Of a DNA stretch of 64,000 nucleotides, positions 8,043-38,968 are shown piece after piece. Each line of letters begins with the position of its first letter. Positions within the stretch are counted from its first letter, which is position 1. Under the pieces are notes generated by a model. It made no database searches. It saw only the letters and a list, made by a program, of their open reading frames with translations, and was not told the DNA's origin. The stretch is from Octopus sinensis (taxonomy: Eukaryota), in assembly GCF_006345805.1 (NCBI RefSeq), contig NC_043000.1, positions 155,310,001 through 155,374,000 of the forward strand. Direction: 5' to 3'. The position numbers and the translations under genes were made by a program.

Positions 8043-8122
<80 letters not shown>
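7945..8122. repeat. (GATA)n microsatellite
   Basis: Direct inspection. Confidence 0.95.
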
Positions 8123-8420
8123 CATACACCACTGTTAGACTTTTGGTCAGTCATATTGCGCCAAGTCTATTTTTTCCACTTTGGTTTATTATTTTATCGT
8201 CAACTCTACGACGAGCTGCCACATTTCGGGACATAATGAGAAACGTCAGAAATACAGAGGAGCGCATACATACACGCAGTTCCACCCACAAGGCATTAAT
8301 TGATCAAAGGCTGTATTAGAAAATACTTAGGCAGCATACCACCGAGTAGCTGCGTGTCGGTAACCACGAGGTTGCAAAGCAATTGTGTTAACCATGCAGC
8401 AATGCATGCATCTCTCTCTC

Positions 8421-22867: not shown

Positions 22868-24584
22868 AGTATGTATGTATGTATGTATGTATGTATTATG
22901 TATGTATGTATGTATGTATGTATAGAAGAAAGGTTGGGAGTTAATGCATAAAATATAGCAATACAGCAAAAGTATAGCATGCCATATTAAATGCCACACC
23001 AAGACATCTTTCTTTTATTTTGTGCATTCAAAGACCGCCAAGGAGACCGCATCTGTTCTTTCGTCTCTGCTTTAATAAAAGATATAGCATACAATTACTA
23101 CGGTCCAGTCAATCAACGGCATTTCTTCCTTTAAATTAGCGGCCTTTGTGCTCGTGGAAGAAATAATTTCTTCGGTCTAAAAATTTCATTTTTGATGATT
23201 TCAGCAAGATAAAGCTGAATATATATGTAGGGACTTTCTATCATCCGCATCTTCTTCAATTACTTTAGCAATGAGAACGCAGTAAAATGTTATAATCAAC
23301 AATCGACCTAAGAAAATGAGATGTTCTGATGTTCATGCGTTTTCATTTTTAATTGAAGACTTTCCAATGAGAGTGAAATTTGATGGCGAATTTAATTCTC
23401 CATGAATTTATTGATTCTAGACTGACTGTTTGTTAGATAGAAAAAGAGATTAATCCTCGCCATTATTGGAAATTGTTATCAGATATTTCTACAACAAAGA
23501 ACACGTTGCCATCAAGAAAACTACACTAAGAAAAAAAAATACGTATATATATATGCATTCACTAGAAACCATTAGCAACTATGTCCATCCAGACTTACTA
23601 AGTAGTACAGCTGATTCAGACGGCATTTGAGATTTGAAATTCCCATAAGCAAAAAAAAAAAATAAATAAGTAAGTAATGTATAAAACATCAAACGACAGA
23701 TCGCTAAAAGTGGAAAGGTAAAACTACAGTGGTATTTTAAAATCTACGTTTCAAAGATATAATATATAAGTGAAAGACCAGGCAGAGTCATTAAATGCTA
23801 ACAAATAACAAATGCAGACGTTGTAATTTATATTGTCATCTCTCTGTCTCTCTCTGTCTCTGTCTCTGTCTCCTCGGAAGGAAAGAGAGAAATGAGACCA
23901 GACAAGAGAAGAACAAAAATAAAAACAATAATGTATCATTTTCTTAGAATAAAGCTGCAAAAGACGGAAAATGAAGTAGTTAAACTCTATATTGTAAGAT
24001 TATTAGAGTCACGGAGAGGACATTCATTATAAAACGATATGGAAAAATTGGATATGGAAGGGCGAAATGTGAAGCAATTTCTTTTGAAATTTCTGTACAA
24101 GGCTATTTTTTTTGGTAGAATAATTGTTGAATGAATGAACCGTGATATATTACTGGTATATATTTTAAACCAACTTGAGTGATATTGAGCTCAAAAGAGA
24201 GAATAATGAATCAATATTGACTCATTATTTTTACTACTTGACAGTAGTGAAAATATTTGAGGGAGGTACAAGAAACTGGAAACTTATGTAATATGTACAT
24301 TCCTGATATTATAATATTATAACTTCAGAACGAATTAAATATTAAGTGTAAATAAGAGTAAATAGGTATTAAGATTACACTACAAGGTTAATAAGTCTGC
24401 ATCCACATGAAGCAAATTAATTTCGTAGTCAGAAAAGATGTTGCCGTGTCTGTGTTTACGAAAAGCGTATTTTTCACAAACGTCGTTTAAAAGAAAGAGA
24501 ACACACAGAATATATTTATTCTGCTTTCAATCCAAAGAGAACGAATGAAACTTTTATACACACACACAACAACAACAACACACT

Positions 24585-24635
<51 letters not shown>

Positions 24636-24643
24636 GATACACA

Positions 24644-24819
24644 CTATTTTATTAAAACTGGAAAAACTTCACAAATTACAATTACTACTAAGAGTTTCAT
24701 ATAAGCGTTCGTCTGATAGTTGTGATAATACAGAATCTGTATTAACATAACTGTCTGACGAATGATCACATGAAACTCTGAGTAACAGATTTTGAATTGT
24801 TTCCGCTTTAATAAAATAG
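24644..24819. repeat. Imperfect palindrome (~176 bp) with hammerhead motifs in both arms
   Basis: CTATTTTATTAAA...TTTAATAAAATAG ends; centre AATACAGA-A-TCTGTATT. Confidence 0.85.
24751..24788 (+). ncRNA. Minimal type I hammerhead ribozyme motif
   Basis: CTGT-CTGACGA-ATG(ATCA)CAT-GAAAC-TCTGA-GTA-ACAG: intact CUGANGA/GAAA core, stems I-III pair, GUA cleavage triplet. Confidence 0.7.
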
Positions 24820-24881
24820 AATTTTGTTCTACCTTTAGTTTCCCTGTGCTATCCTTCCCACCATGCTTACTTGTGAGTATA

Positions 24882-27800
24882 TCAGGTCCAGTAAAAAGTA
24901 AGCAACATTCTCAAACATGAAGAATTTGTACCGGCTTTTCGCAGAGTTTTGAATGTTTTTTTAAACATTTTCTCACAATTGTCTGACAATACAGATGCCC
25001 AAATGCATCAATAAATTAACATTGGTATTTTTTTAACATTGTTACAATCATCTGTACTCTAACTGTCAAAGCACGATATTCGAGCAAGTTTGCAATTCAA
25101 CTTTAAAAAAAGGACATTGAGTAGCTGAAACAGTTCGCGATATCAACGAAACGTTCGCTCCGTATTTTGTGAGTTGGAGTTATTCATTTTTTGGTACTTG
25201 TTGGATTGTGCTATTGTTTGTGAAGAGGTGGGCTGTTAAATTTATATTTGTCATTGCTGAACATTTATTGAACGTTGTTGCTGTTAAGTCGTTAAAACAA
25301 TTGTTGTTTTTCCCCGTGCGGGGGAGCCAGCATTATGGCTAGTCCGAAGAAGCAAGATGTCAAGTTGGAGGAACTCATGGAGATGGTAGAATCACGTCTT
25401 CACGAAGATTCTGACGAAGAGAGTCCGCGATTGGGGAGGAATAGCTCACATGAACAAAAAGTAATGAAGCCGTCAACTTCGAGAAAGAATGTCGATGTAC
25501 CGAGTCTATTAACGAAAGAAAAAGGAGAAGAGAGAAAGGAAAAAAACTTAACCTTCGCAACATGGAAGAACATTAAAAAAATGTTAACAAGGGAGGGACA
25601 TAAAAACAAAGTGGCCCCTTCAAAGAGCATCCAGCAAGAGTTAGAAAAGAAACATTGATTTTCAAAACATACAAAGTCAAGGAAAGATAAATTGACTACG
25701 TTGTTGAGGCTGAAATTGAAAAATGCCTCAAGCCGATATGGAATAAGATAAAATATGTAACAAGAGAAAGACGGTTTGCAACGGTCGAGGTCAGGATGGA
25801 GTCGGAAGAAGAAGCCCAGCTCCATTCGGTCGAACCTTTGAAGACATAGGAAGTAGTGCTTCTGCCCATATACATGGATAGACGGACATCCGGAGTTAAT
25901 ATTGCGAATATTCCCCTTGAGGTGAACCCAAAGTGGCTCGTCGCGGCAGTGACGATGGGCCTGGAGGAAAAAAATACAGTTCTAGACGTTGCCAGCCTCA
26001 ATGCTTCCAGTGTGGAAAGAAGGGCCACCTCAGGGCAGACTGCAAACAGAAAGAAACCGAAAGAAGAAAGAAGTGACGGAGAAGGAGACTGAACAAGCGA
26101 TGTAGTCACAAGCGACACCAATGCCAGAAGAAGGGGAAGGGTGGTCTCTTGTCCAGTACACGAGCAAATTGAAACCACACTCCCCGGGAAAAGAAAAAGA
26201 AAAATAAGAGCCACGTCAATACAAAAAAGCGAGGAAACAAGAGAAGAAAAATGAAGAAGAAATCTGCTACATGGCGGTTCTCGTCTCGAATACAGATCTG
26301 ATGAACCGACTGGTAACGATACACGAATAAAAAACGGAAATACCGGAAAAATAAAAATGGTGTAGAAATTTACAAGACAAATAGCAAGAACTATAATATT
26401 TTGGTGAATGACTTCAGAAAAGATATTGGTCCTCTTAGATTGGCCATTTCTACAAACATCACTCTGACGCAAACGAGCTCGAGAAAAAGAAGAGGAGGCG
26501 GGTTCCCCCACCGCCTCCAGACACCGATAAAACGGCAATTCTTCTTATAGCTGTTCACGTAGGATGCATAAGTGTGCTTGGCCTGGTGTCGAGCTGGAAA
26601 CAAGGACATTTCCTAAATGACGTCAGGTCACAATGTTTAGACGTTATTGTTGCTACTGAAACTCGGTTAAAAGGGCCAAGAGATCTGCTCTCGCTCCTGA
26701 AACGCTACGAGAGATTCATTTCTCCAGGCCGGCCGGGGGGCAGGGGTGGAGCGTTGGTCCTACTTAAAAGAAACCGAGTTTCAGAGAAAAGTTAATTTGT
26801 TCAGATCCAGAGAAAATTAACTGGTCGTTTTAGACCTGACATTTAGTTGTGGTAAGGAAATCAGGCTGGTTGCTGTTTATGCACCCAATTCGAGTCAGAC
26901 TGATTATTATCGAGATTTGGAGAAGTTTCTAGGCACAACACGTTCATTAGTTGTGTTAGGAGATTTTACACTATCTTCGATGCACGCGTGGATAGTTTAG
27001 CTGAAATACTGATAGGAGACCTAACATTTGCTTCCGATATCTACTAAGTCGCTTTCAGCTAGTAGATCCCTACAGACTAGAATTCCAGGACGCTCTATTG
27101 GGGACATGGTCAACTAGCGATGGGTCTTCTAGGTCTTAGACAGGGTTTTTATTAGAAAACTAGATATAGTTACATGTCCACAATATCATCTGGTCAGTTA
27201 CAGCGACTATGTAAACTGTACATAGATAAGTTATGTAGTAAGGGATCCGTAGTAAGTCCCTTTTGGCAATTGAGGAATGCAGGAGCCGGATTAAGTTATT
27301 AATACAGAGAGCGTTGACCGGTTCCATTATCAATAACAAATGGTGGTACGCCCTCAAAAGAGCCATTAAATTTGAGTCTATTAGAAATAGTGCAGGTTTA
27401 GTGGCTAGAGGGCGTAGGAAGGAAATTGAATTAGTTAAGGGCCTAGAGGAAGCCATGAGAACTGGTGATGCATCCCAATGAAGGTGAAGAGATTAGAGTT
27501 AAACCAGCACCTCGAAGCCAAGCACATGGGGTGTATCGTCAGAGTTAGACTTCGTGCTATGGGGAGTGAGGGAATCAATGCCACTGGATGGGCACGTGTT
27601 GTTGAAGCTCAACGTGGAACGATTCCATAACTCGATCGTTGGCGAATTAGCAATGTGTGTTGATAAACGAACCCGAGATATGTCGGAATTTTCGGGAGTA
27701 CTTCATCCAGCTTTTCGCGGGAGCGATGGACCGGATAGTAGGACAGACCTTACGGACTTCCTCGCCGGGCTGCCGTGTCTCTTTGGGCTGGATGCAGGGA

Positions 27801-38932: not shown

Positions 38933-38968
38933 CTTTTACGTTTCGAGCCTACGCTCTTCAGCACAAAG
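38933..38968 (-). ncRNA. Degenerate minimal hammerhead-like motif
   Basis: CTTT-GTGCTGA-A-GAGC(GTAG)GCTC-GAAAC-GTA-AAAG; core mutated. Confidence 0.4.

What the first reader, a model, noticed from the sequence alone, without database searches (positions are those of the whole stretch)
24644..24819. 176-bp palindrome carrying a core-intact hammerhead on + and a decayed one on -
Seen: right arm CTGT-CTGACGA-ATGATCACAT-GAAAC-TCTGA-GTA-ACAG, with palindromic helix III (ACTC-T-GAGT) and AATAAA ~20 nt downstream. The left arm read on the minus strand gives CAGACGA-ACGCTTATAT-GAAAC-TCTTA-GTA. Known: Penelope minimal hammerheads with palindromic helix III can self-cleave as dimers. Inference: an inverted dimer of a pLTR end forming a rod-like unit with ribozyme motifs in both polarities.
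Basis: partly seen in the sequence, partly recalled or inferred. Interest (0 to 1): 0.75.

Follow-up and report, generated by a model that had tools for sequence, protein, structure and literature searches.

The report
Head-to-head stumps of hammerhead-bearing retroelement
The 176-base palindrome is an old, decayed head-to-head pair of tail-end fragments of a short, very abundant repeat that carries a hammerhead-ribozyme-like motif and was likely copied into a microsatellite by the enzymes of a Penelope-like retrotransposon; it is an ordinary case of a known insertion pattern.

Summary
Window 24644-24819 is a real imperfect palindrome centred at 24735. Its + arm carries every conserved hammerhead core letter and the - arm carries a decayed copy.

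It is not a unit in its own right. It is one insertion of a dispersed family: 1738 exact anchor hits in the 2.7-Gb genome against 0 in the control. The longest copies are about 0.55-0.6 kb and have no long ORF. Copies form a 5'-truncation series. They end at one of two fixed 3' ends, which differ by a ~65-nt "tail". They sit in microsatellites, mostly (TA)n. More than half have an inverted, truncated partner, and the junction differs from copy to copy, so each palindrome was made at insertion.

In 16 of 17 unselected inverted pairs exactly one arm has the tail. In the window that arm is the + arm, with the tail at 24820-~24884. This is the published insertion signature of Penelope-like elements, whose intact RT+GIY-YIG ORFs abound in this genome.

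Caveats: Rfam finds no hammerhead. The 10.1-11.1 pair is A-U. The largest subfamilies carry CCGA (U4 to C) in the master, with CUGA arising by CpG decay. No autonomous partner was found, and cleavage is untested.

The parts
24588..24630 (.). (AG)n microsatellite, preceded by (CAA)n/(CA)n from ~24560. This is the flank or target on the tail-less side of the insertion.
   Evidence: Sequence read. Family copies abut microsatellites.
24644..24734 (-). Left arm: a 5'-truncated 3' module read on the - strand, ending at the short 3' end (E1, ...AATAAAATAG at 24653-24644). No tail. The hammerhead-like motif is decayed: CAGACGA, broken helix II, UCUUAG.
   Evidence: The family covariance model scores 47.7 bits at 24658-24731(-) (this arm was in the training alignment).
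24735..24735 (.). Centre of the palindrome, i.e. the junction of the two 5'-truncated arms.
   Evidence: A contig of run X8 carries a 10-nt insertion right behind 24735.
24736..24819 (+). Right arm: a 5'-truncated 3' module on the + strand, from ~19 nt upstream of the core to the E1 position (AATAAA 24810-24815).
   Evidence: The family covariance model scores 74.8 bits at 24739-24806(+) (this arm was in the training alignment).
24751..24788 (+). Hammerhead-like motif with an intact core: helix I CUGU/ACAG, CUGACGA, helix II AUG-AUCA-CAU, GAAA, helix III A-C-U/A-G-U around CUG (palindromic ACUCUGAGU), H17 = A24784. The predicted cut lies between 24784 and 24785.
   Evidence: Sequence. Structure counts on 68 family arms. 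No Rfam hammerhead match.
24820..24884 (+). One-sided 'tail': a family-specific extension to the long 3' end (E2), present on this arm only.
   Evidence: Aligns with the tails of other copies. A different repeat starts at 24878-24880. The one-sided rule is shown.

Best explanation
Window 24644-~24884 is one old, dead insertion made of two 5'-truncated 3'-terminal modules of a short non-coding repeat family joined head to head. The family was likely mobilised in trans by a Penelope-like element (PLE) reverse transcriptase/GIY-YIG endonuclease by target-primed reverse transcription into a microsatellite.

Shown:
- The family is dispersed and abundant.
- Its copies form a 5'-truncation series anchored at two discrete 3' ends: E1 just after AATAAA(N)2-4, and E2 about 65-70 nt further on.
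- Young copies sit in (TA)n.
- More than half of unselected copies have an inverted truncated partner, with a junction that varies between copies.
- In such pairs one arm ends at E2 and the other at E1.
- Every arm that reaches far enough carries a hammerhead-shaped motif 37 nt upstream of E1.

Inferred:
- Both 3' ends of a cut (TA)n target would prime cDNA on the element's RNA. (TA)n is its own complement.
- The two priming sites would be two UAUA-containing places: the start of the tail (E1) and read-through flank beyond E2. That would give the inverted E1/E2 pair.
- The hammerhead-shaped module would serve mainly as the 3' recognition and structure module of the template.
- Self-cleavage, if it ever happens, would need two sense copies and is not possible for this inverted, decayed copy.

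The window copy belongs to the older subfamily (loop II AUCA/GUCA), whose master probably had the canonical CUGA box. Its + arm kept the core and its - arm lost it by ordinary decay.
For: Family size:
- 606 first-look candidates for the 176-mer.
- 228 exact hits to a 24-letter hammerhead pattern against 0 in the control.
- 1738 hits to an anchor that leaves the core free, against 0 in the control.

3' ends and truncation. I mapped 30 loci chosen only by the exact motif, in chromosome order, onto a long copy.
- 3' ends fall at reference 435-444 or ~494-535.
- 17 loci are inverted pairs: 16 have a tail on exactly one arm (one of these is only a 12-17-nt stub), 1 has no tail, 0 have a tail on both.

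In 29 loci chosen by the tail alone:
- In 29 of 29 the tail is contiguous with arm sequence.
- Arm starts range from reference 1 to 434.
- 10 of 10 clean partner arms end at E1.

Three full-length copies share a 5' boundary, and two further long copies share theirs. None of the long copies has a long ORF.

Flanks of 20 young copies: 19 of 20 E2 ends and 10 of 10 E1 ends abut TA repeats.

Structure on 68 arms:
- 83% of cells are paired, against 32-40% when the partners are slid.
- 0 of 500 shuffles reach the observed score.
- There are compensatory subfamily changes at two helix I pairs (AU/UA and AU/CG).

PLEs in this genome:
- 5029 first-look GIY-YIG candidates, with open frames of 775-883 aa.
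- Two ORFs have RVT_1 plus a C-terminal GIY-YIG.
- A 781-aa family is flanked by (TA)n on both sides.

Published PLE signature:
- 5' truncation, an adjacent inverted 5'-truncated copy, a tail often at one end only, hammerheads in pLTRs, and microsatellite bias (PMC8557442, passages read).
- Both target strands are cleaved and extended, two RT start sites delimit the tail, and a hammerhead lies a short way upstream (PMC11167929, main text read).
- Pairs of minimal hammerheads 100-700 bp apart on opposite strands, and many single truncated motifs (PMC4209133, parts 1 and 2 of 4 of the text read).
Against: - No autonomous PLE sharing sequence with the family was found. The 19 PLE-containing loci I held (108 kb, at least two ORF families confirmed by Pfam) showed only two unrelated insertions of the family.
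- The canonical PLE ORF copies I inspected have no CTGA.GA...GAAA motif within reach.
- No head-to-tail pLTR arrangement was seen for the family.
- Rfam's hammerhead models give no hit at E <= 10, in the window or in the best copies.
- The motif departs from published PLE minimal hammerheads: A10.1-U11.1 instead of the highly conserved G-C, no extra letter after A9, and a helix II of only 3 bp.
- In the unbiased census the commonest core is CCGA (47 of the first 100 listed), with CTGA 18 and CCAA 15, as expected for neutral CpG decay of a CCGA master. So most 'intact' cores in the big subfamilies are decay products.
- The PAc enzyme starts reverse transcription at sites without homology to the target (PMC11167929), which does not favour my microhomology idea.
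- No RNA evidence: only contigs were on offer.
Confidence: 0.78

Rival explanations
1. This is a functional rod-like (viroid- or retrozyme-like) palindromic RNA unit with hammerheads in both polarities that self-cleaves, as dimers, during its own replication.
For: The stretch folds into a very stable rod. Some family palindromes have intact-looking cores on both strands (L006, L008, L023; L052 and L060). Loop III is palindromic, as in dimer-forming hammerheads (PMC4209133).
Against: - The junction and the arm lengths vary from copy to copy, and solo arms and long copies are common.
- The tail is one-sided in 16 of 17 pairs.
- A transcript of an inverted pair has one sense motif and its complement, so the hairpin out-competes the hammerhead fold.
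- No tandem arrays were seen for the family, apart from one untested 66-nt-spaced triplet.
- The master of the major subfamilies has C at position 4.
Confidence: 0.03
2. This is a fold-back or miniature inverted-repeat DNA transposon whose long terminal inverted repeats happen to contain the motif. Solo arms and asymmetric copies would be deletion products.
For: Palindromic copies up to X-A-A'-X' exist (L015). TA-rich targets are typical of some DNA transposons (recalled).
Against: - There is a graded 5'-truncation series with two fixed 3' ends.
- Long copies have a unique 5' region with no inverted partner.
- One and only one arm carries the tail in 16 of 17 pairs, and both arms carry it in just 1 copy seen (L015).
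- No target-site duplication can be defined in (TA)n.
Confidence: 0.07
3. The hammerhead likeness is fortuitous or only vestigial. The module is just a stem-enclosed 3' recognition structure, and the CUGA box in copies such as the window's arose by CpG deamination of CCGA.
For: - Core census: CCGA 47, CTGA 18, CCAA 15 of the first 100 listed.
- Arms not selected for CTGA in the GGAA-loop subfamilies: CCGA 14, CTGA 5, CCAA 1.
- No Rfam hit.
- The 10.1-11.1 pair is A-U.
- Helix II variation shows no excess of compensated combinations (hand count on the list).
Against: - Ten or eleven of the eleven core letters, all three helices and a palindromic loop III are kept across subfamilies.
- In the window's older subfamily, arms not selected for the box are CTGA 11, CCGA 3, CCAA 1 of 19. 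One search shows a similar skew. That does not fit full decay of CCGA, which predicts CTGA about equal to CCAA.
- The motif sits where PLE hammerheads sit relative to the 3' end (PMC11167929).
- A second, unrelated short element in (TA)n has a textbook-looking minimal hammerhead (L083).
Confidence: 0.12

Closest known systems
Insertion units of endonuclease-bearing Penelope-like elements (Penelope/Poseidon, Neptune, Nematis, Naiad): pLTR, adjacent inverted 5'-truncated copy, optional one-sided 30-40-bp tail (Craig et al. 2021, PMC8557442; Frangieh et al. 2024, PMC11167929)
   Same: 5' truncation; an inverted truncated partner; two alternative 3' ends, with the extension on one side only; a hammerhead-type motif a few tens of bases upstream of the 3' end; insertion into (TA)n or other microsatellites.
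   Different: No ORF: the longest copies are ~0.55-0.6 kb. No pLTR or tandem form was seen. The tail is ~65-70 nt rather than 30-40. No sequence link to an autonomous PLE was found.
Minimal type I hammerheads of metazoan PLEs (Cervera and de la Pena 2014, PMC4209133)
   Same: Type I topology; short helix III with a palindromic loop (ACUCUGAGU); thousands of mostly single, truncated copies; pairs on opposite strands 100-700 bp apart were already reported there.
   Different: A10.1-U11.1 instead of G-C; no extra nucleotide after A9; helix II of 3 bp rather than 6-8; helix I long (10-11 bp with a bulge) in the family; C4 in the masters of the largest subfamilies.
Non-LTR retrozymes of animals (Cervera and de la Pena 2020, PMC7229834; Li et al. 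2026 preprint, 10.64898/2026.07.22.740005)
   Same: Short, non-coding, hammerhead-bearing and probably PLE-dependent. The preprint derives retrozymes from PLE pLTRs.
   Different: Retrozymes are head-to-tail tandem repeats expressed as circular RNAs. This family is dispersed as solo or inverted copies, and no circular RNA evidence could be sought.

Membership tests
Hammerhead ribozyme, type I (core definition) | Conserved core C3 U4 G5 A6 N7 G8 A9 / G12 A13 A14 / A15.1-U16.1 / H17 | tested here: met
   Window + arm: CUGACGA ... GAAA ... GUA at 24755-24784. Not met by the - arm (CAGACGA), nor by the commonest family sequence (CCGACGA, 47 of the first 100 listed).
Hammerhead ribozyme, type I (core definition) | Three helices around the core, I open, II and III closed | tested here: met
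   On 68 arms 83% of cells are paired, against 32-40% when slid. Helix II is 89% paired, helix III 95.5% and inner helix I 87%. In the window copy helix I is only 4 bp plus a broken extension.
Hammerhead ribozyme, type I (Rfam Hammerhead_1 and other Rfam hammerhead models) | Match to the curated covariance model | tested here: not met
   No hammerhead family at the gathering score in the window. None at E <= 10 in 24500-24950 or in L009, L043, L061, L083.
Hammerhead ribozyme | Self-cleavage 3' of H17 | not testable with these tools
   Only contigs of public runs were available, and these cannot show RNA ends.
PLE minimal hammerhead (Cervera and de la Pena 2014) | G10.1-C11.1 pair and an unpaired nucleotide between A9 and 10.1 | tested here: not met
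   A-U at 10.1-11.1 in 65 of 68 arms (columns 25-34). No extra nucleotide.
PLE minimal hammerhead (Cervera and de la Pena 2014) | Palindromic 15.2-16.2 and loop 3 | tested here: met
   ACUCUGAGU is nearly invariant across arms.
Penelope-like element insertion | RT plus GIY-YIG ORF within the element | tested here: not met
   The longest copies are ~0.55-0.6 kb without a long ORF, so the family is at most a non-autonomous dependant.
Penelope-like element insertion | 5'-truncation series with a fixed 3' end, and an adjacent inverted 5'-truncated copy | tested here: met
   arm starts at reference 1-434. Inverted pairs in 17 of 30 unselected loci.
Penelope-like element insertion | Optional tail extension, usually at one end only | tested here: met
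   16 of 17 pairs have a tail on one arm only, 0 on both. 10 of 10 partner arms of tail-bearing arms end at E1. The one both-sided copy seen is L015.
Penelope-like element insertion | Pseudo-LTRs from partial head-to-tail tandems | tested here: inconclusive
   None among ~80 loci inspected. One 66-nt-spaced triplet at G000 C6:4276124-4276290 was not followed up.
Penelope-like element insertion | Sequence shared with an autonomous PLE of the same genome | tested here: inconclusive
   Not found in 19 PLE loci, 108 kb. That is a tiny part of the 5029 first-look candidates.
Non-LTR retrozyme | Head-to-tail tandem repeats, each with a hammerhead; unit-length circular RNA | tested here: not met
   Copies are solo or inverted. 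Circular RNA could not be tested.
MITE / fold-back DNA transposon | Terminal inverted repeats with a fixed target-site duplication, and ends defined on both sides | tested here: not met
   Ends are asymmetric (E1 against E2), truncation is graded at the inner side, and long copies lack an inverted partner. A duplication cannot be defined in (TA)n.

The most novel reading that the evidence does not exclude
The family is a natural experiment on what PLE hammerheads are for. Its most prolific, youngest subfamilies spread with a U4-to-C master core, yet they keep all three helices, including compensatory changes in helix I. So the hammerhead fold would be retained as the template's recognition scaffold while catalysis is dispensable. 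The near-obligate rule of one arm at E1 and the other at E2 in a self-complementary (TA)n target would mean that a single concerted event primes both target strands at two different UAUA sites of the template.
Probability: 0.3. Interest if true: 0.5.

Novelty: new member of a known kind. Interest (0 to 1): 0.3.

Why it matters
For the window itself it matters little: this is a dead, decayed repeat copy.

For the family there are three points of wider use.
- It adds a very abundant, ORF-less, hammerhead-motif-bearing dependant of PLE-type integration in an invertebrate-sized 2.7-Gb genome.
- The strict one-sided tail rule, seen in clean young copies inside (TA)n, constrains models of how PLEs build inverted insertions.
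- The C4 master core in the largest subfamilies agrees with the in vitro result that hammerhead catalysis is not needed for PLE insertion (PMC11167929).

It also warns annotators that 'intact' hammerhead cores in such families can be made by CpG decay.

Tried and rejected
- Rfam at the gathering score and at E <= 10: no hammerhead, only hairpin or microsatellite look-alikes of miRNA families.
- RNA evidence. The one run search offered only contigs. When laid, a run guessed to be RNA (X1) covers 24459-24553 and the neighbouring repeat, but not the palindrome. This says nothing about expression or cleavage.
- Helix II covariation. ATG..CAT against ACG..CGT looked compensatory. On the 100 listed rows, 84 could be scored and the combinations fit independent CpG decay: compensated TG/CA 9 and CA/TG 8, against double-mismatch CA/CA 7, with expectations of 8.7, 4.8 and 6.1. 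I rejected it as evidence of selection.
- A fixed palindromic master element (my early idea): rejected after searches showed variable and often unequal arms.
- Fold-back self-copying of the first cDNA as the origin of the second arm: disfavoured. Young pairs often have unequal arms (for example reference 431-505 against 358-442), and only one arm has the tail.
- The tail as a separate repeat or target: rejected, since the tail is contiguous with arm sequence in 29 of 29 tail-selected loci.
- Search for the autonomous partner: canonical PLE ORFs were found, but none linked to the family.
- A fuzzy-regex scan timed out and was replaced by BLAST.
- Earlier notes of this scan on this genome: none exist.

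Full report
**What is at the coordinates.** The palindrome is real. Inner arms 24686-24734 and 24736-24784 are 82% complementary, and outer arms 24644-24666 and 24797-24819 are 83% complementary. The 176-mer matches its own reverse complement at 75%. As RNA it would form one hairpin of -65.5 kcal/mol, z = -10.7.

On the + strand the right arm reads as follows:
- CUGU 24751-24754
- CUGACGA 24755-24761
- AUG-AUCA-CAU 24762-24771
- GAAAC 24772-24776
- UCUGA-G-U-A up to 24784
- ACAG 24785-24788

Every conserved hammerhead core position is therefore present, H17 is A24784, and AATAAA lies at 24810-24815. The left arm read on the - strand has CAGACGA, a broken helix II and UCUUAG.

**It is one copy of a large dispersed family.** The own genome has 2.72 Gb in 13,516 contigs, and the window is C4:155,310,001-155,374,000.
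- The 176-mer finds 606 first-look candidates. The 40 that were scored gave 70 matches at 67-89% identity, apart from the stretch's match to itself. They are full palindromes and single arms.
- An exact 24-letter hammerhead pattern has 228 hits against 0 for the reversed control.
- An anchor that leaves the core and helix II free has 1738 hits against 0.
- A covariance model built from 68 arms finds two unrelated copies in 108 kb of other loci. In the window it finds only this pair. Copies therefore likely number in the tens of thousands; this is a rough extrapolation.

**Anatomy of the family.** Two long copies (L039, L043) share a 5' boundary, and the three full-length copies (L093, L101, L108) share theirs. 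They give an element of about 0.55-0.6 kb without a long ORF. The hammerhead-shaped motif lies at reference 371-400 of the long copy L043.

I mapped 30 loci picked only by the exact motif, in chromosome order.
- 3' ends fall into two classes. E1 lies at reference 435-444, just after AATAAA plus 2-4 nt. E2 lies at about 494-535, after a family-specific tail of about 65-70 nt.
- 17 of the 30 are inverted pairs, one more is complex, and the rest are solo or long copies.
- In 16 of the 17 pairs exactly one arm carries the tail. One of these carries only a 12-17-nt stub. One pair has no tail and none has two.

In a second sample of 29 loci picked by the tail alone, at 94-99% identity and therefore young:
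- The tail is contiguous with arm sequence in 29 of 29.
- Arm starts run from reference 1 to 434, with a cluster at 354-369, which is 2-17 nt upstream of the core.
- All 10 clean partner arms end at E1.
- Arms of one pair are often unequal, for example 431-505 against 358-442.

The palindromes are therefore built anew at each insertion. They are not a conserved unit.

Of 20 young copies, 19 of 20 E2 ends and 10 of 10 E1 ends abut TA repeats. Older copies abut (TG)n, (CA)n, (GTAT)n or, in the window, (AG)n.

In the window the + arm is the tail-bearing one. Its tail, 24820-~24884, aligns with other tails. From 24878-24880 a different ~280-bp repeat begins.

**Comparison with what is known.** Each of these traits is in the published description of PLE insertions:
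- strong 5' truncation
- an inverted 5'-truncated copy next to the unit
- hammerheads in the terminal repeats
- a bias for microsatellites, (TA)n in Naiads

These come from PMC8557442 (passages read). The purified Anolis PLE protein cleaves and extends both target strands. It starts reverse transcription at two nearby internal sites that delimit the tail, with the hammerhead a short way upstream, and hammerhead mutants still insert (PMC11167929, main text read). Cervera and de la Pena already reported thousands of mostly single minimal hammerheads, and pairs on opposite strands 100-700 bp apart, which they took to be truncated PLEs (PMC4209133, parts 1 and 2 of 4 of the text read).

The genome is rich in canonical PLEs.
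- There are 5029 first-look GIY-YIG candidates, with open frames up to 883 aa.
- Two ORFs, of 781 and 775 aa, have RVT_1 followed by a C-terminal GIY-YIG.
- The copies of the 781-aa family that I inspected (L080, L082) lie between (TA)n runs.

The best reading is a non-autonomous dependant of PLE-type integration. The link to a specific PLE is inferred: none of the 19 PLE loci I held shares sequence with the family.

**Is the motif a hammerhead?**

For:
- On 68 arms the three-helix structure is kept, with 83% of cells paired against 32-40% for slid partners and 0 of 500 shuffles as high.
- Two helix I pairs changed on both sides between subfamilies: AU 22 / UA 16, and AU 35 / CG 11.
- Loop III is the palindromic ACUCUGAGU typical of dimer-forming animal hammerheads.

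Against:
- No Rfam hammerhead model matches at E <= 10.
- The 10.1-11.1 pair is A-U in 65 of 68 arms, and helix II has 3 bp.
- The variation in helix II fits neutral CpG decay (my hand count on the list).
- Most important, the unbiased census gives CCGA 47, CTGA 18, CCAA 15 and other 20 among the first 100 of 1738 hits. Arms of the GGAA-loop subfamilies that were not selected for the box give CCGA 14, CTGA 5, CCAA 1 and other 1 of 21. The masters of the largest and youngest subfamilies therefore carry C at position 4. From memory of the classical mutagenesis, not checked here, that change strongly impairs cleavage. Their 'intact' CUGA copies are products of CpG deamination.

The window's subfamily is older. 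Its loop II is AUCA/GUCA, and its arm-to-arm identity is 0.62-0.81, against 0.78-0.96 in the others. It gives CTGA 11, CCGA 3, CCAA 1 and other 4 of 19 arms. That skew, also seen, does not fit decay from CCGA, so its master probably had the canonical box.

I conclude that the motif descends from a PLE-type hammerhead. Catalysis was probably lost in the lineages that spread most, while the fold was kept.

In an inverted pair each transcript holds one sense motif and its complement. The long hairpin wins over the hammerhead fold of one arm, which reaches only -4.3 kcal/mol and whose best fold is not the hammerhead. A hammerhead dimer needs two sense copies in tandem, and the family shows no such arrangement. 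The - arm motif is simply the more decayed twin of an old insertion.

**Inferred mechanism (not shown).** (TA)n is its own complement, so after a staggered cut both 3' ends can pair with UAUA stretches of the template. Two such stretches exist. One is the start of the tail (CAUAUUAC), where E1 ends lie, with BLAST ends at 440-442. The other is the read-through (UA)n beyond E2. One priming at each site, on the two strands, would give the E1/E2 inverted pair. The Anolis enzyme shows no need for such homology, so this remains a proposal.

**Other evidence.** A contig of run X8, which carries a different organism label, spans 24645-24939 with 2 differences and a 10-nt insertion right behind 24735. 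The locus is therefore shared with a close relative or another individual, and the centre of the palindrome varies.

Earlier notes of this scan on other genomes describe the same pattern: mini palindromic PLE stumps, junctions a few bases upstream of the hammerhead core, and the mirror half built anew. They are unchecked AI notes that agree with my reading. They are not support for it.

**Verdict.** It is a new member of a known kind, of low to moderate interest. Two family-level leads are worth a specialist's look: the C4 master core and the one-sided tail rule.

Noticed in passing
window 24879-25155: A different, very abundant ~280-bp repeat: 1324 first-look candidates, with copies at 81-84% identity. 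It directly abuts the tail. Contigs of a run guessed to be RNA cover it at high depth.
   Followed up: partly
L083 + strand ~8109-8165 (G000 C8, ~1 kb upstream of a 775-aa PLE ORF, opposite strand): A second, unrelated short element set in (TA)n carries a textbook-looking minimal hammerhead (CUGAUGA, GAAAC, perfect palindromic ACUCGAGU, H17 = C). It also has a ~21-nt direct repeat at two places.
   Followed up: partly
L080 2721-5063, L082 2872-5214, L083 4845-7169(-): Intact canonical PLE ORFs (781 and 775 aa; RVT_1 plus C-terminal GIY-YIG). Two copies of the 781-aa family (L080, L082) are 98% identical over ~4 kb and are flanked by (TA)n. No CTGA.GA...GAAA motif was found nearby.
   Followed up: partly
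G000 C6:4276124-4276290: Three copies of the motif at 66-nt spacing (-, +, +). This may be a mini tandem array of the hammerhead module, and it is the only hint of a head-to-tail arrangement.
   Followed up: no
window 24735 (run X8 contig): A contig from a run with another organism label holds the locus with 2 differences and a 10-nt insertion (a duplication of the start of the right arm) at the centre of the palindrome.
   Followed up: no
L009 2084-2423 (-): An SSU rRNA-like fragment scoring 49 bits, just under Rfam's gathering score of 50, ~0.5 kb from a family copy.
   Followed up: no
window 38941-38961 (-): CTGAAGA...GAAAC-GTA: the two hammerhead boxes followed by an ACGU-type minimal junction. 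No convincing helix I or II. Probably chance (9 box matches in the window against 3.4 expected).
   Followed up: partly
L017, L021, L025 right flanks; L041, L058, L061 right flanks: Family copies are often followed by other recurring repeats. One is a tRNA-like SINE-type sequence starting GGCGCAGGAGTGG. Another starts CTTTTACTTGTTTCAGTCATTTGACTGCGGCC.
   Followed up: no
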